A stretch of DNA of 64,000 bases from Candidatus Binatia bacterium (lineage in GTDB: Bacteria; Desulfobacterota; Binatia; DP-6), in NCBI GenBank assembly GCA_035295465.1, contig DATGIZ010000025.1, positions 23,767-87,766 of the forward strand, in the 5' to 3' direction. Both the position numbers and the translations under genes were made by a program. The notes under the pieces are model-generated. The model was not told where the DNA came from and made no database searches. It worked only from the letters and a program-made list of their open reading frames with translations. Below, piece by piece: positions 51,355-62,420 of this stretch (the first letter of the stretch is position 1; each line of letters opens with the position of its first letter).

Positions 51355-52923
51355 GTGCCCCAAGGCGGAGGTGTAGGGACGCCGGACGAGCCCCTTCGCC
51401 GGGCGCTGCGCGAGGCGACCGCCGAGCTGCTGCGCCGGCTCGACGAGCTGTCGCTCGTGCGCCTGGTGGGCGACGCGCTCGCGGGCGAGGTGGCCCCGCC
51501 GGCGATCGGCCGGGCGGTGGTGACCCTGCTGCGCGAGGAGGCCGGAGCCGAGCTTGCGGGCCTGTGGGCGACCGACGCCCGCGCCGGCGGGCTGCGCCTG
51601 CTCGCGCTCGCGCGGGAGGGCGCGGAGCCGGAGACGGCCGGCGCCGACGCGCCGCTCGTCCCCTTCTCGGCGGGCGCCCTCGGCCGCGCCGGAGCCGGAG
51701 AGGCGACACTCGTGGAGGATGCGGCCGCCGCCCCCGAAGATCCGCCGGCCGAGGCGGCGGGCCTGCGGGCGCTCCTCTTCCATCCCGTCGGCGTGCGCGG
51801 CCGGATCGCGGGCGTGCTCGTGCTCGGCGCCGCCGAGGCGGGCGCGGTCGGCGCGGAGCACGAGCGCCTGCTCGGGCTCATCGCACCGGCCGTGGCCATG
51901 GCGCTGGAGAACGCGGCGCTCTACGACCGGCTCGCGGCCGAGAACCGCCGCCTGCGCGCCGCGCTCGATTCGGGGACCGGCGAGCCGGTGCTCGTCGGTG
52001 CGAGCCCGGCCTTCCGCCGCATGCTCGCGGTCGTGGAGCGGCTGGCGGCCGCCGACATCACGGTGCTCGTCCTCGGCGCGAGCGGGACGGGGAAGGAGCT
52101 GGTGGCCCGGGCGCTCCACCACCACAGCCCGCGCCGAGCGGGGCCGTTCGTCGCGGTCAACTGCGCGGCTCTGCCCGACACGCTCCTCGAGAGCGAGCTG
52201 TTCGGGATCGAGCGCGGCGTGGCGACGGGCGTCGAGCGCCGCCCGGGCCTCGTCGAGCGCGCCGCCGGCGGCACGCTGTTCCTCGACGAGGTGGGGGACA
52301 TGAGCCTTGCCGTGCAGGCGAAGGTGCTGCGCGTGCTCCAGGAGCGCGAGGTCGTGCGCGTCGGCGGCGGCCGCCCGCTGCCTGTCGACGTACGCGTGAT
52401 CGCGGCCACGCACCAGGACCTCGAGCGGGGGGTGCGCGAGGGCCGCTTCCGCGAGGACCTCTACTTCCGCCTGAAGGTCGCCAGCGTGCATGTGCCCGCG
52501 CTGGCGGAGCGCGTGGACGACGTCCCGCTGCTGGCGCAGCACTTCCTCGCCCGCTTCGCCGAGAAGCACGGGCGCCCCGGGCTCGAGCTCTCCTCGCGGG
52601 CGGTGACCGCGCTCGTCGGCCGGGCCTGGCCGGGGAACATCCGGGAGCTGGCGAACGCGATCGAGCACGCGGTCGTGCTCGCGGCCGGCCCCCTGGTCGA
52701 GGCCGCGGACCTGGGCCTCGACCCCGGCCCCGCGGCCGACGATGCCACGGACGGGGATCTCGCCTATCGGCGGGTGGTCCCGGCGGCCGTGGACAGCGCC
52801 GAGCGTGCGGTCATCCAGCGGGCGCTCGTCGCCGCGGGGCAGAACCGCACCAGGGCAGCGCGCCTGCTCGGCATCGGGCGGCGGACGCTTCTCTACAAGC
52901 TCAAGCGCTACGGGCTTCGTTGA
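51355..52923 (+). CDS. GAF-domain AAA+ enhancer-binding-protein-type transcriptional regulator (Fis-type HTH) with degenerate GAFTGA loop
   Basis: GTG start. N-terminal GAF-like region, Walker A GASGTGKE, Walker B TLFLDEVGD and C-terminal QNRTRAARLLGIGRRTLLYKLKRYG. The loop reads ELFGIERGVATGV where ELFGHEKGAFTGA is expected. Confidence 0.9.
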   Translation: MPQGGGVGTPDEPLRRALREATAELLRRLDELSLVRLVGDALAGEVAPPAIGRAVVTLLREEAGAELAGLWATDARAGGLRLLALAREGAEPETAGADAPLVPFSAGALGRAGAGEATLVEDAAAAPEDPPAEAAGLRALLFHPVGVRGRIAGVLVLGAAEAGAVGAEHERLLGLIAPAVAMALENAALYDRLAAENRRLRAALDSGTGEPVLVGASPAFRRMLAVVERLAAADITVLVLGASGTGKELVARALHHHSPRRAGPFVAVNCAALPDTLLESELFGIERGVATGVERRPGLVERAAGGTLFLDEVGDMSLAVQAKVLRVLQEREVVRVGGGRPLPVDVRVIAATHQDLERGVREGRFREDLYFRLKVASVHVPALAERVDDVPLLAQHFLARFAEKHGRPGLELSSRAVTALVGRAWPGNIRELANAIEHAVVLAAGPLVEAADLGLDPGPAADDATDGDLAYRRVVPAAVDSAERAVIQRALVAAGQNRTRAARLLGIGRRTLLYKLKRYGLR

Positions 52924-54812: not shown

Positions 54813-55124
54813 TCAGTAGCTGCGGCGGTTCGAGAACCCGCCGCTGTTGCGAGGGCCGCGGCCGCCGCTCCCGCCCTCGCGGGGCTTGGCCTCGTTCACG
54901 TTGATCTGCCGGCCGCCGACCTCGCGGCCGTTGAGCGTCGAGATGGCCTGAGCCGCCTCGCTCGCCGAGCTCATCTCGATGAAGCCGAAGCCCCGTGAGC
55001 GGCCCGTGTCCCGGTCGGTAACGACCGTCACCGACTCGCAGGTTCCCACTTCCGAGAACAGCGCCTCGAGATCCGCGCTCGTGGTCTGGAAGGATAGATT
55101 TCCGACAAAGAGTTTCTTGCCCAT
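54813..55124 (-). CDS. RRM-type RNA-binding protein with Gly/Arg-rich tail
   Basis: MGKKLFVGNLSF (RNP2) and SRGFGFIEM (RNP1). C-terminal GGSGGRGPRNSGGFSNRRSY. GGAGAA SD. Confidence 0.9.
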   Translation of the reverse strand: MGKKLFVGNLSFQTTSADLEALFSEVGTCESVTVVTDRDTGRSRGFGFIEMSSASEAAQAISTLNGREVGGRQINVNEAKPREGGSGGRGPRNSGGFSNRRSY

Positions 55125-55344
55125 GGCATTCTCCTGCCCCTGTGGGGTCTTTGGTATTGTCGCGGTTGCCTGAGCGAGAGGCCGAGATCGTCGGAGGGAG
55201 CGACGGAAGCGGGTCGCGCGCAAACAAGAGGACGAAGCTCTTATCCTCTCATTCCATCGGCTGCGCAATCCTCCCGTGCCACCCGCCGGATCGGACGCGA
55301 CGCCGATCGCACGCCGCTCGGGTCGGCGAGAGGCTGGGTCGTGT

Positions 55345-55373
55345 TTGACAAGCGCGAGGCTCGAGCCTACGCT
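55345..55373 (+). promoter_or_regulatory. candidate sigma-70-type promoter
   Basis: TTGACA (55345-55350), exactly 17 nt, TACGCT (55368-55373). It lies about 125 nt upstream of the ATG at 55499, which has an AGGAGA SD. Confidence 0.5.
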
Positions 55374-55498
55374 CGGCTTCCCTCGTCTCGGGTGACCTCG
55401 ACGCAATTTCGCCTCGAGCCTTCGTCCGAGACCGCCTCGCGCCCGAACGGCCTCCGTGCGCGGTGGGCGCCTGCTCGGGCTGCTCTCAGGAGACTTGC

Positions 55499-55894
55499 AT
55501 GCCATTCTCTCGGGCTCCGTTTCGCGCGCCTGCAGCCCCCCATGTCCGCTTCGCCGTCTTTGCCGTCGGTCGACGAGCATACATCGCGGGCGCGAACGGC
55601 CGCTCGGCTGGGGTGACGCTGACGGACGATCACGAGAGACCTCTTGCGAGCCTGAGCGAAGGCGCCGAGGTCGTGATTCTCGCCTGGCGCCCCGGCTGGA
55701 AAGGGACGACCCGCTACTGCGTCCGCCTGATCGATTCCGGCCTCGAAGGCTGGTTGCCGGTCAGCGAGCTCCGCGGCACGAAGGACGCGATCTCGTCGCC
55801 GCCGGCCGCGACACCTCCCCCGGCCGGTCGTTCCGGGGCGCTCCGAGCCGGGGAGTCCGCGAGCTCCGGGCGCCGATTCGGCCAGCGGTCCTAG
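55499..55894 (+). CDS. hypothetical protein, SH3-like central segment
   Basis: Trimmed to MPFSRAPF with AGGAGA 7 nt upstream. EVVILAWRPGWKGTTRYCVRLIDSGLEGWLPVSEL resembles bacterial SH3-type strands. Confidence 0.55.
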   Translation: MPFSRAPFRAPAAPHVRFAVFAVGRRAYIAGANGRSAGVTLTDDHERPLASLSEGAEVVILAWRPGWKGTTRYCVRLIDSGLEGWLPVSELRGTKDAISSPPAATPPPAGRSGALRAGESASSGRRFGQRS

Positions 55895-56023
55895 CTCGCC
55901 CGCGCCCCATCGGCCAACCGAGTGGCGGCCCGCCACGAGGCGCTCGCTCGCTGATCGTCGGCGTGCAATTATGGACGCGCCACGCCCGGGGCGCTCGGCG
56001 CCGACGTTCGGTCGTGGTGGCGT

Positions 56024-56758
56024 ATGGATTGCAGGGCGCAGGGAGCGATGATGACGATGATTGCCAGGGGTGTCGCAGTGGCCGGGCTCGGGATGCTGCT
56101 CGTGACGACCGGGAGCGCGAGCGCCAAGGTCCCGGCGTGCCCGTCGGGGAGCTACACGGTCAGCGGGGGCGGCGCCCAGACGCTCAACATCGATACGTCG
56201 ACCAAGCCGGCGACCGTGACCTACACGGGTTGCGAGCCGGGAACGGGGCACGTGCGGGGGACCCGCAAGGGGACGAAGGTGACGGCCACCTTCCCCTCGT
56301 GCAGCGCTTGCGCCGTCTCCACCAAGAAGGCGCACTTCAAGGCGACGATCTCGCCGGATTGCACGAGCGTGCCGGTTCCCAAGCTCGTCTGCCCGAAGAG
56401 GCCGCCGGTGGCGAGCGGCGGTAAGACCAGCGGGGCGCCGGTGAGCTTCGCCACCACCATCGCGCCCATGCTCGCGGCGAGCTGCGCCACGGCGTCGTGT
56501 CACACCGGCAGCAACCCGAGCGAGGGGCTCACGCTCGACGCCGACAAGTCCTACGCGGCGATAGTCAACGTGCCCTCGCTGGAGCAGCCCTCGCTCAAGC
56601 TGGTGAGCCCGAGCAAGCCGAAGTCGAGCTACCTCCTGATGAAGGTGCTGGGCACGGCCTCGCAGGGCGCGCCGATGCCCCTCACCGGCACGCCGCTGTC
56701 GTCGAGCCAGATCCAGCAGCTCAGCGACTGGATCACGCAGGGCGCGCAGAACAACTAG
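56024..56758 (+). CDS. secreted Cys-rich protein with C-terminal planctomycete-cytochrome-c-like (PSCyt1-like) domain
   Basis: Signal peptide ...GLGMLLVTTGSASA. The C-terminal FATTIAPMLAASCATASCH...GLTLD...LVSPSKPKSSYLLMKV...PMP...LSSSQIQQLSDWITQGA follows the PSCyt1 pattern as I recall it. The start could be 56024 or 56048. Confidence 0.75.
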   Translation: MDCRAQGAMMTMIARGVAVAGLGMLLVTTGSASAKVPACPSGSYTVSGGGAQTLNIDTSTKPATVTYTGCEPGTGHVRGTRKGTKVTATFPSCSACAVSTKKAHFKATISPDCTSVPVPKLVCPKRPPVASGGKTSGAPVSFATTIAPMLAASCATASCHTGSNPSEGLTLDADKSYAAIVNVPSLEQPSLKLVSPSKPKSSYLLMKVLGTASQGAPMPLTGTPLSSSQIQQLSDWITQGAQNN

Positions 56759-56856
56759 CGCCGTCCGCGGCCGCGGACGTTGCCGCTGCGCGCCCGGCCG
56801 TGGTAGGCTCGGGGCTGCCGGTGGGCGAGGTCGTCGCGTTTCAGGAGATCGTCCGC

Positions 56857-57033
56857 ATGCGGCGGAGGCGCCGAGCGCGCGCGCTCCACCTGCGCTGTCG
56901 GGTGATCCTCGCGGAGTCCGTGGTGTGGGCACGGGCCCAGATGCACGGCGCGCCCGCGGCTGAACGCTGGGTGCGGATGGCGCGGCTGCGCAAGCTCGAG
57001 GAGCTGGAGGCCTACGCCGCCGCGTTCGGCTGA
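56857..57033 (+). CDS. possible small basic protein (58 aa)
   Basis: AGGAG lies 9 nt upstream of the ATG. High GC3. MRRRRRARALHLRCRVILAESVVWARAQ... No family recognised. Confidence 0.45.
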   Translation: MRRRRRARALHLRCRVILAESVVWARAQMHGAPAAERWVRMARLRKLEELEAYAAAFG

Positions 57034-57057
57034 GCGAAGGCGCCGCACCGGGGAGGG

Positions 57058-58164
57058 GTGTTGGGCGAAGCAACGTGGCTCGTGGGGATCGTGGGGGGGG
57101 CGCTCGGCGTCGCGATCGTGCTCGCCCTCCAGCGGCTCGGCGCCCGCCGGGGCGGCGGGGAGCTGGTGCTCCTCCAGCAGCAGCTCGACGCGCTGCGCGG
57201 CCAGGTGTCCCAGGCGCTCGCGAGCCAGGGGCAGCTCGTGAGCCAGGAGCTCGGCCGGCTCACCGCCGAGCTGAACGGCCGCCTGCGGGAGAACGTCGAG
57301 CTGGTCCAGCGCGGGCAGACCGCGATCGGCGAGCGGCTCGACGGGGCCGCGCGCGTGGTGGGCGAGGTGCAGCGCGGCTTGGGCGAGCTGCGGGAGGCGA
57401 CGGCGCGCGTCTACGAGGTGGGCCGCGACGTGGCGACGCTGCACGACATCCTGCGCGCGCCGAAGCTCCGCGGCGGGCTCGGCGAGCTGCTGCTCGGCGA
57501 TCTGCTCGCCCAGGTGCTCCCGCCGGCGCATTTCACCCTCCAGCACGCCTTCGCCGACGGGGAGCGCGTCGACGCGGTGGTGCGGCTCGGCGGCGGCCTG
57601 GTGCCGGTCGACGCCAAGTTCCCGCTCGAGGACTTCCGCCGGCTCCTCGAGGCCGCCGACGATGCCGAGCGGGCGCGGGCCCGCAAGGCGTTCCTCGTCC
57701 GCGTCCGCAAGCACGTCGACGACGTCGCGCGCAAGTACATCCGCCCCGACGAGCGGACGTACGACTTCGCGCTCATGTACATTCCCGCCGAGAACGTCTA
57801 CTACGAGGCGGTGATCCGCGAGGAGGCGGGCGAACCGAACGCGGTGACGGCGCACGCGCTCGAGCGGCGGGTGATTCCCGTCTCCCCGCACACGTTCTAT
57901 GCCTATCTCCAGGCGATCGTGCTCGGACTCAAGGGCCTGCGCATCGAGGCCCGCGCCGAGGAGGTCCTGGGGCAGCTCGCCCGGCTCGCGGGCGAGGTCG
58001 GTCGCCTGCGCGACGAGGTGCGGCTGATCGGCAAGCACCTCGGCAACGCGAGCCAGGCGTGCGTCGCCGCCGAGCGGCGTCTCGAGCGCTTCGAGACGAA
58101 GCTCCTCGCCGCCAGCGGCGCGGAGGAAGCGGAGCCGGCGCGGCTCGCGCAGGTCCACCCATGA
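57058..58164 (+). CDS. rmuC: DNA recombination protein RmuC
   Basis: N-terminal TM and coiled coil. LRAPKLRGGLGELLLGDLL ... VPVDAKFPLEDF ... FALMYIPAENVYY ... VSPHTFYAYLQ align by eye with E. coli RmuC as I recall it. Confidence 0.9.
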   Translation: MLGEATWLVGIVGGALGVAIVLALQRLGARRGGGELVLLQQQLDALRGQVSQALASQGQLVSQELGRLTAELNGRLRENVELVQRGQTAIGERLDGAARVVGEVQRGLGELREATARVYEVGRDVATLHDILRAPKLRGGLGELLLGDLLAQVLPPAHFTLQHAFADGERVDAVVRLGGGLVPVDAKFPLEDFRRLLEAADDAERARARKAFLVRVRKHVDDVARKYIRPDERTYDFALMYIPAENVYYEAVIREEAGEPNAVTAHALERRVIPVSPHTFYAYLQAIVLGLKGLRIEARAEEVLGQLARLAGEVGRLRDEVRLIGKHLGNASQACVAAERRLERFETKLLAASGAEEAEPARLAQVHP

Positions 58165-59297
58165 TCACGGTGCCGGCGCTGCGGCTCCACCAGTTCGGCG
58201 TGGTGCTCTACCAGGCGATGCTCGGCGCGCGCGACGTCGACCGGCTCGTGCGCTTCGAGGTGTTGTCGTACGACACGCAGCTCGGCGAGGCGCCCGCACA
58301 CGGGGGGAAGCGGCGCCGGCCGCGGGGGTCGCGCGTCAACTGGGAGCTGCTCGAGAAGCGCATCGCGTCGAGCGCCGAGGCCTATCAGCGGCCGGTGATC
58401 CGCAAGAAGATCGCCGACCTCGTCGACTACTACGGGCAGTGCGCCGAGGCCGGGAACCTGCCGGCGATCCCCGGCGCCGTGCTGCTCGTCGCCGACCGCC
58501 GGCTCGAGTTCACCCCCACCAGCTCGCACCGCGTGCTCGGCGTGCTCCAGATCCCCGCCGAGGAGGGCGTGCTGCGGGCGCTCGACGGCCAGCACCGGCT
58601 CCTCGCGCTCCACCAGCTCATCGCCGACGGCCGCGCCGAGAACGTGCAGGTGCCGGCGGTCGTCTTCGACCGGCTCTCGCCCGACCAGGTCGTCGAGCTG
58701 TTCGTCACGATCAACGCCAAGCACACGAAGCTCAATCCCTCGCACCTGATCAGCCTGGCGGGCCGCCGCCTCTACCCCGATGCCATGCTCGCCGCGAGCC
58801 ACGATATCATCCGCGCGCTCAACGAGCGGGCCGACTCGCCGCTGCGCGGGGACATCAAGCTCTTCGGGATGGGCCGCGGGCGGGTGGCGCAGGCGCCCCT
58901 CGCCGAGGAGCTCAAGGGCATCTTCACCGCGCTCGACGCGCTCGGCGGCCGGGCGGCCGCGCATTTCCGGGAAGAGGCACCGCGCTTCTTCCTCAGCTAC
59001 TTCAAGCGCGTCGCCGAGACCTTCCCCCGCGCGTGGGTCGGGCGCAAGTACAGCATCAAGACGGCGATGGCCCTGCGTGCCTTCCTGCGCGTCGTGCCCG
59101 ACGTGCTCGGTGCGGTGCGCCAGGCGGGCGGCGACCCGTTCGACGGGCACGCGCTCGGCCGCGTGCTCGCGCCGTGGGCGGAGCAGATCGGCGACGCCCG
59201 CTTCGAGACCGAGGGCGAGTGGCGCGAGAAGCTCGCCGGCGGCACGCGGGGGACGGTCGACCTGCTGGCGCGCGAGCTGAAGAGCGCGCTGCGCTAG
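58161..59297 (+). CDS. DGQHR-domain (DndB-like, ParB/sulfiredoxin-fold) protein
   Basis: ATG 58161 overlaps the rmuC TGA (ATGA). The literal motif LDGQHRL is encoded at 58584-58598 (DGQHR). The N-terminal ITVPALRLHQFGVVLYQAML and TINAKHTKLNPSH are typical of this family. Internal part of track ORF 57075..59297. Confidence 0.85.
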   Translation: MITVPALRLHQFGVVLYQAMLGARDVDRLVRFEVLSYDTQLGEAPAHGGKRRRPRGSRVNWELLEKRIASSAEAYQRPVIRKKIADLVDYYGQCAEAGNLPAIPGAVLLVADRRLEFTPTSSHRVLGVLQIPAEEGVLRALDGQHRLLALHQLIADGRAENVQVPAVVFDRLSPDQVVELFVTINAKHTKLNPSHLISLAGRRLYPDAMLAASHDIIRALNERADSPLRGDIKLFGMGRGRVAQAPLAEELKGIFTALDALGGRAAAHFREEAPRFFLSYFKRVAETFPRAWVGRKYSIKTAMALRAFLRVVPDVLGAVRQAGGDPFDGHALGRVLAPWAEQIGDARFETEGEWREKLAGGTRGTVDLLARELKSALR

Positions 59298-59299
59298 CG

Positions 59300-60013
59300 G
59301 TGCTCGACGAGCTGCTCCTCTACGACCTCACCGACTCGCCCTTCTGCATGAAGGCGCGCATCTGCCTGCATCTCAAGGCGGTGCCGTTCCGCTGCGTGAC
59401 GCTCACGCTCGGCCGGCGGCGCGAGCTGCGGCGGCTGAACCCCCTCGGCAAGGTGCCGGTGCTCCTCCACGGCGGCGAGGCCGTGGCCGACTCGAGCGCG
59501 ATCGCCCGCCACCTCGAGCGACACTGGCCCGAGCCTCCGCTGCTGCCCGCCGATCCCGCCGCGCGCGCGTACTGCACGCTGGTCGAGGAGTGGGCGGACG
59601 AGGCGCTCTCCTTCCTCGTCGGCGCCTTCAAGTGGCTCAACCCCGAGAACCGCGCGGCGGCGCTCGCGAACACGGTGACCGAGATGGCCGACGGCCCGGT
59701 GCGCCCGCTGCTTGGCTGGGCGATCGCGCGCACGATCCGCGGGCGCTATCGCCGCTGGGGCTACGGCCCGGCGAGCCTCGGGCACCTGGGCGAGCGCATG
59801 CGCGAGAACCTGGGGGCGCTCGACGCGCTGCTCGCGGGTCGCTCGTATCTGGTCGGCCGCGCGCCGACGCTCGCGGACGTCGCGGTGTTCGCGCAGCTAC
59901 GCTGGATGGCGCGCTACGCGGAGGCGCGGTTCCTCGCCGCGGTCCCCGAGGTGTCGCGGTGGCTCGCGCAGGTCGCCGAGCTGCCGGCGGTCGCCGCCGC
60001 GCTTCCGGCTTGA
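59300..60013 (+). CDS. glutathione S-transferase family protein
   Basis: GTG start 2 nt after the upstream stop. LYDLTDSPFCMKARI ... NPLGKVPVL ... DSSAIARHLE thioredoxin-like GST N-domain. Confidence 0.85.
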   Translation: MLDELLLYDLTDSPFCMKARICLHLKAVPFRCVTLTLGRRRELRRLNPLGKVPVLLHGGEAVADSSAIARHLERHWPEPPLLPADPAARAYCTLVEEWADEALSFLVGAFKWLNPENRAAALANTVTEMADGPVRPLLGWAIARTIRGRYRRWGYGPASLGHLGERMRENLGALDALLAGRSYLVGRAPTLADVAVFAQLRWMARYAEARFLAAVPEVSRWLAQVAELPAVAAALPA

Positions 60014-60046
60014 CCCCGATCCGCGGCGGTGCCAAGAAGCGGCGCC

Positions 60047-60349
60047 ATGGCGACCTTCGTCCGCGCCGCCGCCGCCGCCGACGTCGCCCCGGGCACGGGC
60101 GTGACCGTCGAGGTGAACGGCAGGCAGATCGCGCTCTTCAACGTCGACGGGACCTTCCACGCGCTGGCCGGCGAGTGCCCGCACCGCGGCGGTCCGCTCG
60201 GCGACGGCGAGCTCGAGGGCTGCGTGGTCACCTGCCCGTGGCATAGCTGGCAGTTCGACGTGACCAGCGGCGAGAGCCTCACCGACGATCTCAAGGCCGA
60301 GCGCTACGAGGTGCGGGTCGAGGGCGGCGAGGTGCTGGTCGCCGTCTAG
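60047..60349 (+). CDS. Rieske [2Fe-2S] domain protein (NirD-like small subunit)
   Basis: CPHRGGPL ... CPWHSWQF Rieske ligands in a 100-aa ORF. Confidence 0.85.
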
Positions 60350-61131
60350 CCCTTCGGCTTGCGGAAGCGCGGCGGACGCCGCTCGAGGAACGCGCGCCGG
60401 CCCTCCTCGGCCTCCTCGGTGCCGTAGTAGAGCGCGAGCGCGCTGAAGGCGATCTCGTTGAGCCCGGCGATGTGCTCGGAGTCGGCGTTGAACGACTGCT
60501 TGGCGAGCTTGATCGCGGTCGGGCTCTTCTCGAGGATCTCCCGGCACCAGCGCTCGGTCTCGGCGCGCAGCTCGGCCGCCGGGACGACCGCGTTGACCAG
60601 CCCCATCGCCAGCGCCTCCTGCGCGCTGTAGCGGCGGCAGAGGTACCAGATCTCGCGCGCCTTCTTCTCCCCGACGAGGCGGGCGAGGTACGCGGTGCCG
60701 AATCCCGGATCGACCGAGCCCACCTTGGGGCCGACCTGTCCGAAGACCGCCGTGTCGGCGGCGATGGTGAGGTCGCAGAGCACGTGGAGCACGTGGCCGC
60801 CGCCGATCGCGTAGCCGTTGACCATCGCGATCACCGGCTTGGGGATGCCGCGGATCGCGCCGTGCAGCCCGTGCACGTCCATCCCGATGCCGCTGCCGCC
60901 GCCGTAGCCGCCGGCCTGGCGCTCGCGCTGGTCGCCGCCGGCGCAGAAGGCGCGGTCGCCGGCGCCGGTGAGCACGGCGACGCCCACGTCATCGTCCGCG
61001 CCGGCGGCGCGCAGCGCGTGGATCAGCTCGTCGACCGTGCGAGCGCGGAAGGCGTTCATCACCTCCGGGCGGTCGATGGTGATCCAGGCGATGCCCTCGG
61101 CGGCCTCGTAGCGGATGTCTGCGTACGTCAT
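60346..61131 (-). CDS. menB: 1,4-dihydroxy-2-naphthoyl-CoA synthase-like crotonase
   Basis: Trimmed to [40 protein letters not shown] and [16 protein letters not shown] match the MenB signature as I recall it. Confidence 0.8.
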
Positions 61132-62276: not shown

Positions 62277-62420
62277 ATGCCGACGCAGCTCGGAAAGCGG
62301 TACGTGTGCGAGACCTGTGGCACCGAGGCCCTCTGCAACAAGCCGGGCAGCGGTGCGCTCGTCTGCTGCGACCACGAGATGAAGCTGAAGGAGGCGAAGC
62401 CGCTGCCCTCGTCGGACTGA
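62277..62420 (+). CDS. desulforedoxin-like zinc/iron-ribbon mini-protein (47 aa)
   Basis: YVCETCGTEALCNKPGSGALVCCDHEM matches the Y-x-C-x2-CG ... LVCC-x3-M layout of desulforedoxin as I recall it. High GC3. Confidence 0.6.
   Translation: MPTQLGKRYVCETCGTEALCNKPGSGALVCCDHEMKLKEAKPLPSSD

What the first reader, a model, noticed from the sequence alone, without database searches (positions are those of the whole stretch)
57058..59297. rmuC translationally coupled to an orphan DGQHR (DndB-like) gene: possible split ParB-like/nuclease DNA-surveillance pair
Seen in sequence:
- The rmuC stop and the next ATG overlap as ATGA at 58161-58164.
- The downstream 378-aa ORF encodes the literal DGQHR motif (58584-58598) in a DndB-like N-terminal context.
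- A 58-aa ORF with a good SD (56857-57033) precedes rmuC. A GST (2-nt gap) and a Rieske gene follow.
- No dnd, dpd, ssp, methylase or restriction gene is visible anywhere in the 64 kb.

Established knowledge:
- DGQHR/DGQQR ParB-fold domains occur in DndB (phosphorothioation) and DpdB (7-deazaguanine DNA modification).
- As DUF262, they are fused to nuclease domains in GmrSD type IV restriction enzymes and in SspE.
- RmuC carries a predicted restriction-endonuclease-like domain.

Inference: RmuC plus the DGQHR protein may form a two-polypeptide analogue of the fused ParB-like NTPase/nuclease sensors, acting on modified or foreign DNA. I am not aware of this pairing having been described.
Basis: partly seen in the sequence, partly recalled or inferred. 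Interest (0 to 1): 0.75.

Follow-up and report, generated by a model that had tools for sequence, protein, structure and literature searches.

The report
rmuC joined to orphan DGQHR gene
A recombination-nuclease gene (rmuC) really does overlap a stand-alone ParB-like "DGQHR" gene here, but the pairing occurs only in one branch of this bacterial group and one other lineage, sits among housekeeping genes, and looks like an ordinary operon rather than a new anti-phage system.

Summary
rmuC (57058-58164) and a 378-aa DGQHR-domain gene (58161-59297) overlap by ATGA. Both score above the curated family cut-offs. They lie in a five-gene operon (small ORF, rmuC, DGQHR, GST, Rieske) on a Candidatus Binatia metagenome contig.

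I examined 175 loci that encode this DGQHR orthologue.
- RmuC is adjacent only in one Binatia subclade (rmuC then DGQHR) and in Candidatus Tectomicrobia (DGQHR then rmuC, the inverted order).
- Sister Binatia have small ORF-DGQHR-GST-Rieske with no rmuC.
- Acidobacteriota, Methylomirabilota/Rokubacteria, Thermodesulfobacteriota and other Binatia put the gene next to unrelated housekeeping genes: rnc/era, greA, lemA, 5-oxoprolinase, acyltransferase.
- The overlap itself is not conserved. Eleven of 14 measured rmuC-DGQHR junctions have 16-49 nt gaps, nine of them with a recognisable Shine-Dalgarno sequence.

The DGQHR protein evolves slowly (56-60% identity across phyla), has native composition, is absent from plasmids and viral contigs, and has no dnd/dpd/ssp/restriction-modification neighbours. 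None of this fits a defence system.

The second, inverted adjacency is unlikely by chance (roughly 0.02-0.04). A functional link in DNA repair or recombination therefore remains possible but unproven.

Novelty: a new member of known kinds. Interest: low to moderate.

The parts
56800..57033 (+). No known domain.
   Evidence: Called in the public record. Homologues lie directly upstream of rmuC or of the DGQHR gene in Binatia relatives at 52-70% identity. In the relatives that lack rmuC, L087 and L004, its 3' end overlaps the DGQHR start: by 4 nt in the public gene call for L087 and by 25 nt in my own call for L004. No Pfam or NCBIfam hit.
57058..58164 (+). rmuC: N-terminal hydrophobic helix, coiled coil, and a C-terminal RmuC (PD-(D/E)xK-type) nuclease domain.
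   Evidence: PF02646 at 178 bits. GGGGAGGG Shine-Dalgarno sequence before the GTG start. Composition is native: GC 0.742, GC3 0.957.
57571..57618 (+). Putative RmuC catalytic residues D172 ... D185-A-K187 (VDAVV ... VDAKFPLE).
   Evidence: Invariant among six RmuC proteins from Binatia and Tectomicrobia. Assigning them to the PD-(D/E)xK motif is inference from what is known about the family.
58161..58164 (+). ATGA stop/start overlap between rmuC and the DGQHR gene.
   Evidence: Read directly from the sequence. There is no Shine-Dalgarno sequence upstream of the ATG. The overlap is conserved only in L001 and L099; 11 other junctions have 16-49 nt gaps, nine of them with a recognisable Shine-Dalgarno-like sequence.
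58161..59297 (+). Orphan full-length DGQHR-domain (DndB/DpdB-like, ParB superfamily) protein, 378 aa.
   Evidence: TIGR03187 at 107.7 bits (cut-off 58.85) and PF14072 at 44 bits (cut-off 29.1). More than 5000 relatives were found. Orthologues in other phyla are 56-60% identical.
58386..58391 (+). QR pair (Q76 R77), a hallmark of the DGQHR domain.
   Evidence: Invariant in alignments A2 and A5. The motif definition comes from PMC4619093.
58584..58598 (+). DGQHR pentapeptide (D142-R146).
   Evidence: Read from the sequence. Invariant in all alignments.
58701..58715 (+). FxxxN motif (F181-V-T-I-N185).
   Evidence: F181 and N185 are invariant. The motif definition comes from PMC4619093.
59300..60013 (+). 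Glutathione S-transferase-family gene, 2 nt after the DGQHR stop. Part of the same operon; no evident functional relation.
   Evidence: GST_N and GST_C Pfam hits. Syntenic in Binatia with or without rmuC.
60029..60349 (+). Rieske [2Fe-2S] ferredoxin gene, the last gene of the co-directional block. The next gene converges on it.
   Evidence: PF00355 at 69.5 bits. Syntenic in Binatia.

Best explanation
This is a lineage-specific operon arrangement in a Candidatus Binatia chromosome.

An ordinary chromosomal rmuC encodes a membrane-anchored, coiled-coil PD-(D/E)xK nuclease. It lies between a small conserved ORF and a slowly evolving stand-alone gene of the DGQHR (DndB/DpdB-like, ParB/Srx-superfamily) family. 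All of these genes are probably co-transcribed with a GST and a Rieske ferredoxin.

Shown:
- The DGQHR protein belongs to a chromosomal orthologue group that tracks taxonomy (consistent with vertical inheritance) and is found in Binatia, Acidobacteriota, Methylomirabilota/Rokubacteria, Tectomicrobia and Thermodesulfobacteriota.
- In most of these lineages it has no conserved partner gene.

Inferred:
- Its QR / DGQHR / FxxxN motifs and its kinship to DndB and DpdB suggest a nucleotide-binding, DNA-associated switch or regulator that works on the cell's own chromosome.
- In this Binatia subclade, and independently in Tectomicrobia, it has come to be co-expressed with RmuC. In one Methylomirabilales lineage it abuts an AlkZ-related repair gene. 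The most coherent theme is therefore DNA repair or recombination housekeeping, with the DGQHR protein possibly targeting or regulating RmuC.
- It is not a defence island module.
For: Domains.

Operon spacing, absence of a Shine-Dalgarno sequence, and native GC and GC3.

Window context is housekeeping only.

Census:
- 80 GTDB-genome loci, 80 metagenome loci and 15 contig look-up loci were examined.
- An RmuC HMM and tblastn find RmuC beside the DGQHR gene only in one Binatia subclade and in Tectomicrobia.
- There are 42 distinct upstream and 41 distinct downstream neighbour families.

Other contexts:
- iscS-mnmA-rnc-DGQHR-era-der.
- 114-aa ORF-DGQHR-LemA-M48.
- Acyltransferase-DGQHR-LamB/YcsF.
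- DAO/EamA-DGQHR-greA.
- gcvP-DGQHR-AlkZ-related.

Binatia without rmuC: L004, L087, L100, L083/84 and L102. An NJ tree shows the linkage is labile within the clade.

Conservation: 56-60% identity across phyla, with 97 invariant columns in 98 sequences.

No orthologue on plasmids or viral contigs.

Recurrence in Tectomicrobia in inverted order, next to a RecD2 helicase. Apart from one other family, of unclear significance (fam 48, not annotated), RmuC is the only immediate neighbour seen in more than one DGQHR clade.
Against: - No biochemical or genetic data exist for this orthologue group.
- The inferred NTP and DNA binding rests on family membership only.
- The AlphaFold models are mediocre (pLDDT 70-75). 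Foldseek hits to the ParB N-domain, PadC, SspE and Caulobacter ParB are not significant (E 0.09-1.4).
- The repair theme rests on three neighbourhoods out of dozens.
- Most neighbours are metabolic genes, so the protein may act with no link to RmuC at all.
- I could not check whether genomes without the adjacency still carry rmuC elsewhere.
- Gene calls in the fetched loci come from my own codon-usage caller. It was checked only against the public calls for L002.
Confidence: 0.6

Rival explanations
1. RmuC and the DGQHR protein form a two-polypeptide analogue of GmrSD/SspE/BrxU-type ParB-like NTPase plus nuclease effectors. The DGQHR protein senses modified or foreign DNA and licenses the RmuC nuclease, as an innate defence system.
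For: - ParB-like DUF262/DGQHR domains are known to be fused to nucleases, including PD-(D/E)xK types (PMC3632139; PMC10952713).
- RmuC domains do act in defence, in Shield ShdA and in DISARM-associated forms (PMC10270631).
- The genes are tightly coupled here.
- The pairing arose in two lineages.
- Weak PADLOC matches to DpdB and to an RT-associated RmuC.
Against: - The genes are not in a defence island, and no mobile-element genes are nearby.
- Composition is native.
- The DGQHR orthologue is 56-60% identical across phyla and sits in stable housekeeping synteny, unlike fast-turnover defence genes.
- Most lineages have the DGQHR gene without an adjacent RmuC.
- There are no orthologues on plasmids or phage contigs, and the 27 distant viral DGQHR loci have no RmuC.
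- GmrSD_N is below its cut-off.
- Shield partners are unrelated proteins, and Shield excludes housekeeping RmuC.
Confidence: 0.07
2. Pure gene-order coincidence. rmuC was inserted by rearrangement between the small ORF and the DGQHR gene in one Binatia subclade. The two proteins have nothing to do with each other.
For: - Relatives keep small ORF-DGQHR-GST-Rieske without rmuC, with the small ORF overlapping the DGQHR start instead.
- The linkage was gained and lost within a narrow clade.
- The overlap is not conserved.
- The GST and Rieske genes in the same operon are equally tightly packed and have no obvious functional link.
Against: - A second adjacency exists in Tectomicrobia, in inverted order. 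It is conserved over 81-100% DGQHR identity.
- There are about 83 distinct neighbour slots and a single-copy gene among several thousand. A second RmuC adjacency is therefore expected at about 0.02-0.04 (my own rough estimate).
- Both proteins are predicted to act on DNA.
Confidence: 0.28
3. The DGQHR protein is a DndB-like local transcriptional regulator that controls the operon it sits in (here rmuC-GST-Rieske), in the way DndB represses the dnd operon.
For: DndB is a DGQHR protein that regulates dnd transcription (PMC4507180). The protein has the full-length DndB/DpdB-like architecture: TIGR03187 covers residues 6-315.
Against: - A local regulator should co-vary with its targets. Here the same highly conserved orthologue sits beside dozens of unrelated genes, often on the opposite strand.
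- DndB- and DpdB-specific models score far below their cut-offs.
Confidence: 0.05

Closest known systems
DndB / DpdB (DGQHR-domain proteins of DNA phosphorothioation and 7-deazaguanine modification clusters)
   Same: Same domain family, with TIGR03187 and PF14072 above their cut-offs. Same length class (about 350-380 aa). The QR, DGQHR and FxxxN motifs are all present.
   Different: Scores far below the DndB and DpdB equivalog cut-offs: DpdB 46.5 against 300 bits, DGQHR_dnd_1 36 against 450. No dnd or dpd genes in 64 kb. It forms its own conserved chromosomal orthologue group with variable housekeeping neighbours.
GmrSD / SspE / BrxU (DUF262 ParB-like NTPase joined to a nuclease)
   Same: The concept of a ParB-like nucleotide-binding module next to a nuclease. 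GmrS and GmrD can be separate polypeptides.
   Different: The DUF262 model is below its cut-off. The nuclease partner is RmuC (PD-(D/E)xK-type), not DUF1524/His-Me. There is no defence-island context. The pairing is present in only two lineages of the orthologue group.
Shield (ShdA RmuC-domain defence system of Pseudomonas, with downstream partners ShdB-E)
   Same: A membrane-anchored RmuC-domain protein followed by a co-transcribed partner gene.
   Different: Shield lies in defence islands and has been reported only in Pseudomonas. Its partners are an M15-peptidase-like protein or proteins with no identifiable domain, not DGQHR. The authors explicitly exclude housekeeping RmuC. Here the context is housekeeping.
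Housekeeping RmuC (E. coli YigN family)
   Same: The Pfam RmuC domain, an N-terminal hydrophobic segment with a coiled coil, and conserved D...DxK residues.
   Different: Shorter than the enterobacterial protein. It matches the PRK10361 equivalog only over the C-terminal domain (46 against 810 bits). E. coli rmuC is not known to be paired with a ParB-like gene (my own knowledge, not tested here).

Membership tests
DGQHR domain family (TIGR03187 / PF14072) | Profile score above the curated cut-off | tested here: met
   TIGR03187 at 107.7 bits against 58.85, and PF14072 at 44 bits against 29.1.
DGQHR domain family (TIGR03187 / PF14072) | QR pair, DGQHR pentapeptide and FxxxN motif | tested here: met
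   Q76-R77, D142-R146, and F181/N185 are invariant in 98 sequences. The motifs are as defined in PMC4619093.
DGQHR domain family (TIGR03187 / PF14072) | ParB/Srx-like fold of the N-terminal half | tested here: inconclusive
   Two AlphaFold2 models (pLDDT 70.5 and 75.1). ParB-family entries (pNOB8 ParB-N, SspE, Caulobacter ParB, PadC) are among the best Foldseek PDB hits, interleaved with unrelated proteins, and all at E 0.09-1.4.
DndB (phosphorothioation) | Equivalog-level profile match | tested here: not met
   TIGR04172 at 36 bits against 450. PADLOC DndB at 14.6 bits.
DndB (phosphorothioation) | Adjacent dndA/C/D/E genes | tested here: not met
   None among the 57 genes of the 64-kb window, nor among the flanking genes annotated in a sample of the related loci.
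DpdB (7-deazaguanine DNA modification) | Equivalog-level profile match and dpdA/dpdC neighbours | tested here: not met
   NF041060 at 46.5 bits against 300. No dpd genes in the window.
GmrSD / SspE / BrxU type (DUF262 plus nuclease) | DUF262 (PF03235) domain above its cut-off | tested here: not met
   20.3 bits against 33.2, and only residues 160-197 match.
GmrSD / SspE / BrxU type (DUF262 plus nuclease) | DUF1524/His-Me nuclease fused or adjacent, in a defence-island context | tested here: not met
   The neighbour is RmuC, not DUF1524. The surroundings are housekeeping genes.
RmuC family (PF02646) | Profile score above the cut-off, with conserved nuclease-core acidic and lysine residues | tested here: met
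   178 bits against 26. D172 and D185-x-K187 are invariant in six sequences.
Shield defence system | ShdA-type RmuC protein located in a defence island, with ShdB/C/D/E partners | tested here: not met
   The context is housekeeping. The partner is a DGQHR protein, whereas Shield partners are M15-like or have no identifiable domain. Direct sequence comparison with ShdA or ShdB was not done.
   Adjacent in 20 of 175 loci, all from one Binatia subclade and from Tectomicrobia, and absent from all other lineages sampled.
   No multimer prediction or experiment was available.

The most novel reading that the evidence does not exclude
RmuC and this orphan DGQHR protein form a genuine two-component module. 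It would combine a ParB-like nucleotide switch with a membrane-anchored PD-(D/E)xK nuclease. It would have been assembled independently in Binatia and Tectomicrobia, and would act on chromosomal DNA (recombination limitation or repair) or on incoming DNA. In other phyla the same two proteins would cooperate without being linked. This would give the long-uncharacterised RmuC its first partner protein.
Probability: 0.25. Interest if true: 0.6.

Novelty: new member of a known kind. Interest (0 to 1): 0.3.

Why it matters
RmuC has been known since 2000 as a protein that limits recombination, yet its mechanism and partners remain obscure. DGQHR proteins outside dnd and dpd clusters have no assigned role.

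If the two cooperate, the Binatia and Tectomicrobia operons would give a testable handle on both. That would extend the "ParB-like switch plus nuclease" design from defence systems to chromosome maintenance.

As it stands, the main value is negative. The pairing is not a widespread conserved system and does not look like anti-phage defence, so it should not be prioritised as a new immune system. A secondary point is that this DGQHR orthologue group is unusually conserved across several soil-dwelling phyla and deserves a functional study in its own right.

Tried and rejected
1. Clustering all six-frame ORFs of the loci to find conserved neighbours. In these 70% GC sequences, spurious Arg/Ala-rich and antisense ORFs chained together. 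I replaced this with a codon-usage gene caller, checked against the public calls for L002.
2. A GC3-only gene caller missed the DGQHR gene itself.
3. PDB sequence searches for both proteins returned nothing meaningful.
4. Structure prediction with a shallow alignment and then a deeper one gave only mediocre models. Foldseek matches were not significant, so fold-level inference about the C-terminal half was abandoned.
5. I looked for a conserved small partner protein across phyla. The small ORFs upstream of the DGQHR gene in different lineages (c37, c6, c82, c58, c107) are unrelated to each other.
6. Distant DGQHR genes on plasmids and viral contigs have no RmuC nearby. Their adjacent hypothetical proteins have no recognisable nuclease domain.
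7. The sigma-70 promoter and intrinsic-terminator scan of 55100-60700 found nothing useful for defining the transcript.
8. Look-up of P0125 found no contig.
9. Considered and rejected: that this is a DndB or DpdB of a modification cluster split across the window. No such genes are present.
10. Considered and rejected: that the pair is a Shield variant. The context and the partners differ.
Full report
**1. The observation**

The window is part of an 85-kb ENA metagenome contig. Its closest protein relatives are annotated Candidatus Binatia.

- rmuC: ORF 57058-58164 (+), 368 aa, is an RmuC-family protein (PF02646, 178 bits against a cut-off of 26). It has an N-terminal hydrophobic segment. Residues D172 and D185-A-K187 are invariant.
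- The overlap: its TGA overlaps the ATG of the next ORF as ATGA at 58161-58164.
- DGQHR gene: ORF 58161-59297, 378 aa, passes the curated cut-offs of TIGR03187 'DGQHR domain' (107.7 against 58.85 bits, residues 6-315) and of PF14072 DndB (44 against 29.1). It is far below the equivalog cut-offs for DpdB (46.5 against 300) and DGQHR_dnd_1 (36 against 450), and below the cut-off for GmrSD_N/DUF262 (20.3 against 33.2).
- Motifs: the DGQHR pentapeptide is at 58584-58598. The other two hallmark motifs of the domain, the QR pair and FxxxN (PMC4619093), are present and invariant.
- Flanking genes: a GST follows after 2 nt and then a Rieske ferredoxin.
- Composition and translation signals: both genes are compositionally native (GC 0.742 and 0.726 against a window mean of 0.732 +/- 0.043). 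The DGQHR start has no Shine-Dalgarno sequence, so coupling to rmuC translation is plausible here.
- Wider window: scanning all 57 called genes against PADLOC and Pfam shows only housekeeping functions. There are no dnd, dpd, ssp or restriction-modification genes.

**2. Is the pair conserved?**

I gathered three sets of loci encoding relatives of the DGQHR protein:
- 80 from one-genome-per-species GTDB contigs;
- 80 from JGI metagenomes;
- 15 from exact-protein look-ups.

I searched them for RmuC by tblastn and with an HMM built from six RmuC sequences.

RmuC is adjacent in 20 of 175 loci, and these fall into two groups.

(a) One Binatia subclade, with DGQHR identity of 78% or more to the window.
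- The order is small ORF-rmuC-DGQHR-(GST)-Rieske; GST is undetected in a few of these loci.
- It is seen in the window, L001, L003, L085/86, L088, L089 and L091-L099.
- Members of the same clade, L004, L087 and L100 (78-79%), and slightly more distant Binatia, L083/84, L102 and L103 (72-75%), lack rmuC.
- In L004, L087 and L100 the small ORF lies directly upstream of the DGQHR gene. In L087 its stop overlaps the DGQHR start by 4 nt.
- An NJ tree shows one gain plus at least one loss, or else two gains.

(b) Candidatus Tectomicrobia: L154, L171 (92% identical to L154's DGQHR) and L172/173 (81%).
- The order is inverted: HIT-DGQHR-[34-38 nt]-rmuC, with a RecD2-type helicase converging on it.
- The Tectomicrobia DGQHR protein is closer to Methylomirabilota versions (about 66%) than to Binatia (59%). 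The pair was therefore not transferred as a unit.

The ATGA overlap itself occurs in only 3 of 14 measured rmuC-DGQHR junctions. The other 11 have 16-49 nt spacers, nine of them with a recognisable Shine-Dalgarno-like sequence.

**3. What sits next to the DGQHR gene elsewhere?**

Using a codon-usage gene caller, checked against the public calls for the window contig, I found 42 distinct upstream and 41 distinct downstream neighbour families. Pfam annotation shows lineage-specific housekeeping contexts:
- iscS-like, mnmA, rnc, DGQHR, era, der, with 4-nt overlaps on both sides of the DGQHR gene, in another Binatia-like group;
- a 114-aa unknown ORF, DGQHR, LemA, M48 peptidase in Thermoanaerobaculia;
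- acyltransferase, DGQHR, LamB/YcsF in Vicinamibacterales;
- DAO or EamA, DGQHR, and a convergent greA in Rokubacteria;
- gcvP, DGQHR, [3 nt], an AlkZ-related gene, smpB in one Methylomirabilales lineage;
- various metabolic genes elsewhere.

More distant family members (37-47% identity) lie next to thyX and an FHA-kinase, or near a Cas gene.

No orthologue occurs on PLSDB plasmids or IMG/VR viral contigs. Only 22-35% identical DGQHR relatives do, and none of the 27 viral loci has RmuC nearby.

**4. Interpretation**

The DGQHR protein belongs to a chromosomal orthologue group whose identity bands track taxonomy (consistent with vertical inheritance) and which is strikingly conserved. It is 56-60% identical between phyla, which is more than RmuC itself (about 50% between Binatia and Tectomicrobia). 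It has no universal partner gene.

That profile, together with the housekeeping context, argues against an innate-immunity module. Such modules are typically patchy, mobile and clustered in islands. Examples are the published RmuC-domain system Shield, which has been found only in Pseudomonas defence islands, and the RmuC-type homologues embedded in DISARM-like operons; Shield's partner proteins are unrelated.

One result does keep a functional link alive: the second, inverted adjacency in Tectomicrobia. There are about 83 neighbour-family slots, or 65 distinct arrangements, and RmuC is a single-copy gene among several thousand. A second adjacency is therefore expected with probability of only about 0.02-0.04. 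This is my own rough estimate.

Apart from one other family, of unclear significance (fam 48, which I did not annotate), RmuC is the only family that is an immediate neighbour in more than one DGQHR clade. With the AlkZ-related and RecD2 neighbours, the most coherent theme is DNA repair or recombination housekeeping.

**5. Mechanism, and how sure**

Shown:
- membership of both families;
- intact motifs;
- tight co-directional packing;
- a lineage-restricted linkage.

Inferred from what is known of the families:
- The DGQHR protein binds a nucleotide and DNA through a ParB/Srx-type pocket, as proposed for DndB, DpdB and GmrS.
- RmuC is a membrane-tethered PD-(D/E)xK nuclease.

Speculative:
- In Binatia and Tectomicrobia the DGQHR protein directs or restrains RmuC on particular DNA structures.

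Structure prediction did not help much. The models reached pLDDT 70-75. ParB-family structures (ParB-N, PadC, SspE, ParB) recurred among the best Foldseek hits alongside unrelated proteins, none at a significant E-value.

My probabilities:
- about 0.6 for an ordinary lineage-specific operon containing a conserved orphan DGQHR housekeeping gene, possibly repair-linked;
- about 0.28 for pure coincidence with no link;
- about 0.07 for a defence system;
- about 0.05 for a DndB-like local regulator.

**6. Comparison with what is known, and novelty**

- The gene is a member of the DGQHR domain family. It is not DndB or DpdB, because the equivalog scores and the gene context both fail.
- It does not meet the definitions of GmrSD/SspE/BrxU or of Shield.
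- No paper in the searchable library links RmuC with DGQHR or DndB proteins.
- The juxtaposition is thus undescribed. It consists of two known kinds of gene in an arrangement confined to two lineages, so I class it as a new member of a known kind.
- Interest is low to moderate (0.3). The finding is a reasonable lead on RmuC's partner and on an uncharacterised conserved ParB-like protein. It is not the new surveillance system that was proposed.

Noticed in passing
L007 2980-9659; also L008, L009, L024, L110: In another Binatia-like lineage the DGQHR orthologue sits inside the classic rnc-era operon. The order is iscS-like, mnmA, rnc, DGQHR, era, der. There are 4-nt overlaps at both the rnc/DGQHR and the DGQHR/era junctions.
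   Followed up: partly
L154 2658-4993; L171 4001-6329; L172 4001-6395: Candidatus Tectomicrobia carry the inverted arrangement: HIT, DGQHR, [34-38 nt], rmuC, with a RecD2-type helicase converging on rmuC. It is conserved over 81-100% DGQHR identity.
   Followed up: yes
L174 4001-6554; L175: In one Methylomirabilales lineage the DGQHR gene is followed after 3 nt by an AlkZ-related gene (PF24741, a family related to a DNA glycosylase) and then smpB.
   Followed up: partly
window 56800-57033: The small Arg-rich ORF upstream of rmuC is conserved in Binatia (52-70% identity) and has no known domain. In relatives that lack rmuC it lies directly upstream of the DGQHR gene, overlapping its start in L087 and L004, so it may be the older operon partner.
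   Followed up: partly
L204 (Providencia plasmid NZ_CP120529.1) 3706-8202: A distant DGQHR gene (23% identity) and an adjacent 294-aa hypothetical protein are inserted between umuD and umuC on a family of Providencia plasmids. The partner has no Pfam domain.
   Followed up: partly
window, gene not identified (scan of 57 genes): PADLOC gave hits to the candidate defence family PDC-S10 (E 1.5e-16), to a Cas-associated 2OG model (4e-12), and to RtcR/PspF-like models. The last is probably the sigma-54 activator at 51355-52923. I did not determine which genes gave the first two hits.
   Followed up: no
window 62277-62420: A 47-aa ORF with a Desulfoferrodoxin N-terminal-like (zinc-ribbon) Pfam hit lies between the GCV_T-like gene and the amidohydrolase gene. 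It is syntenic in Binatia relatives.
   Followed up: no
L170 218-4241: A 47%-identical DGQHR homologue lies about 1.7 kb from a Cas_GSU0053-family gene on a short metagenome contig.
   Followed up: no
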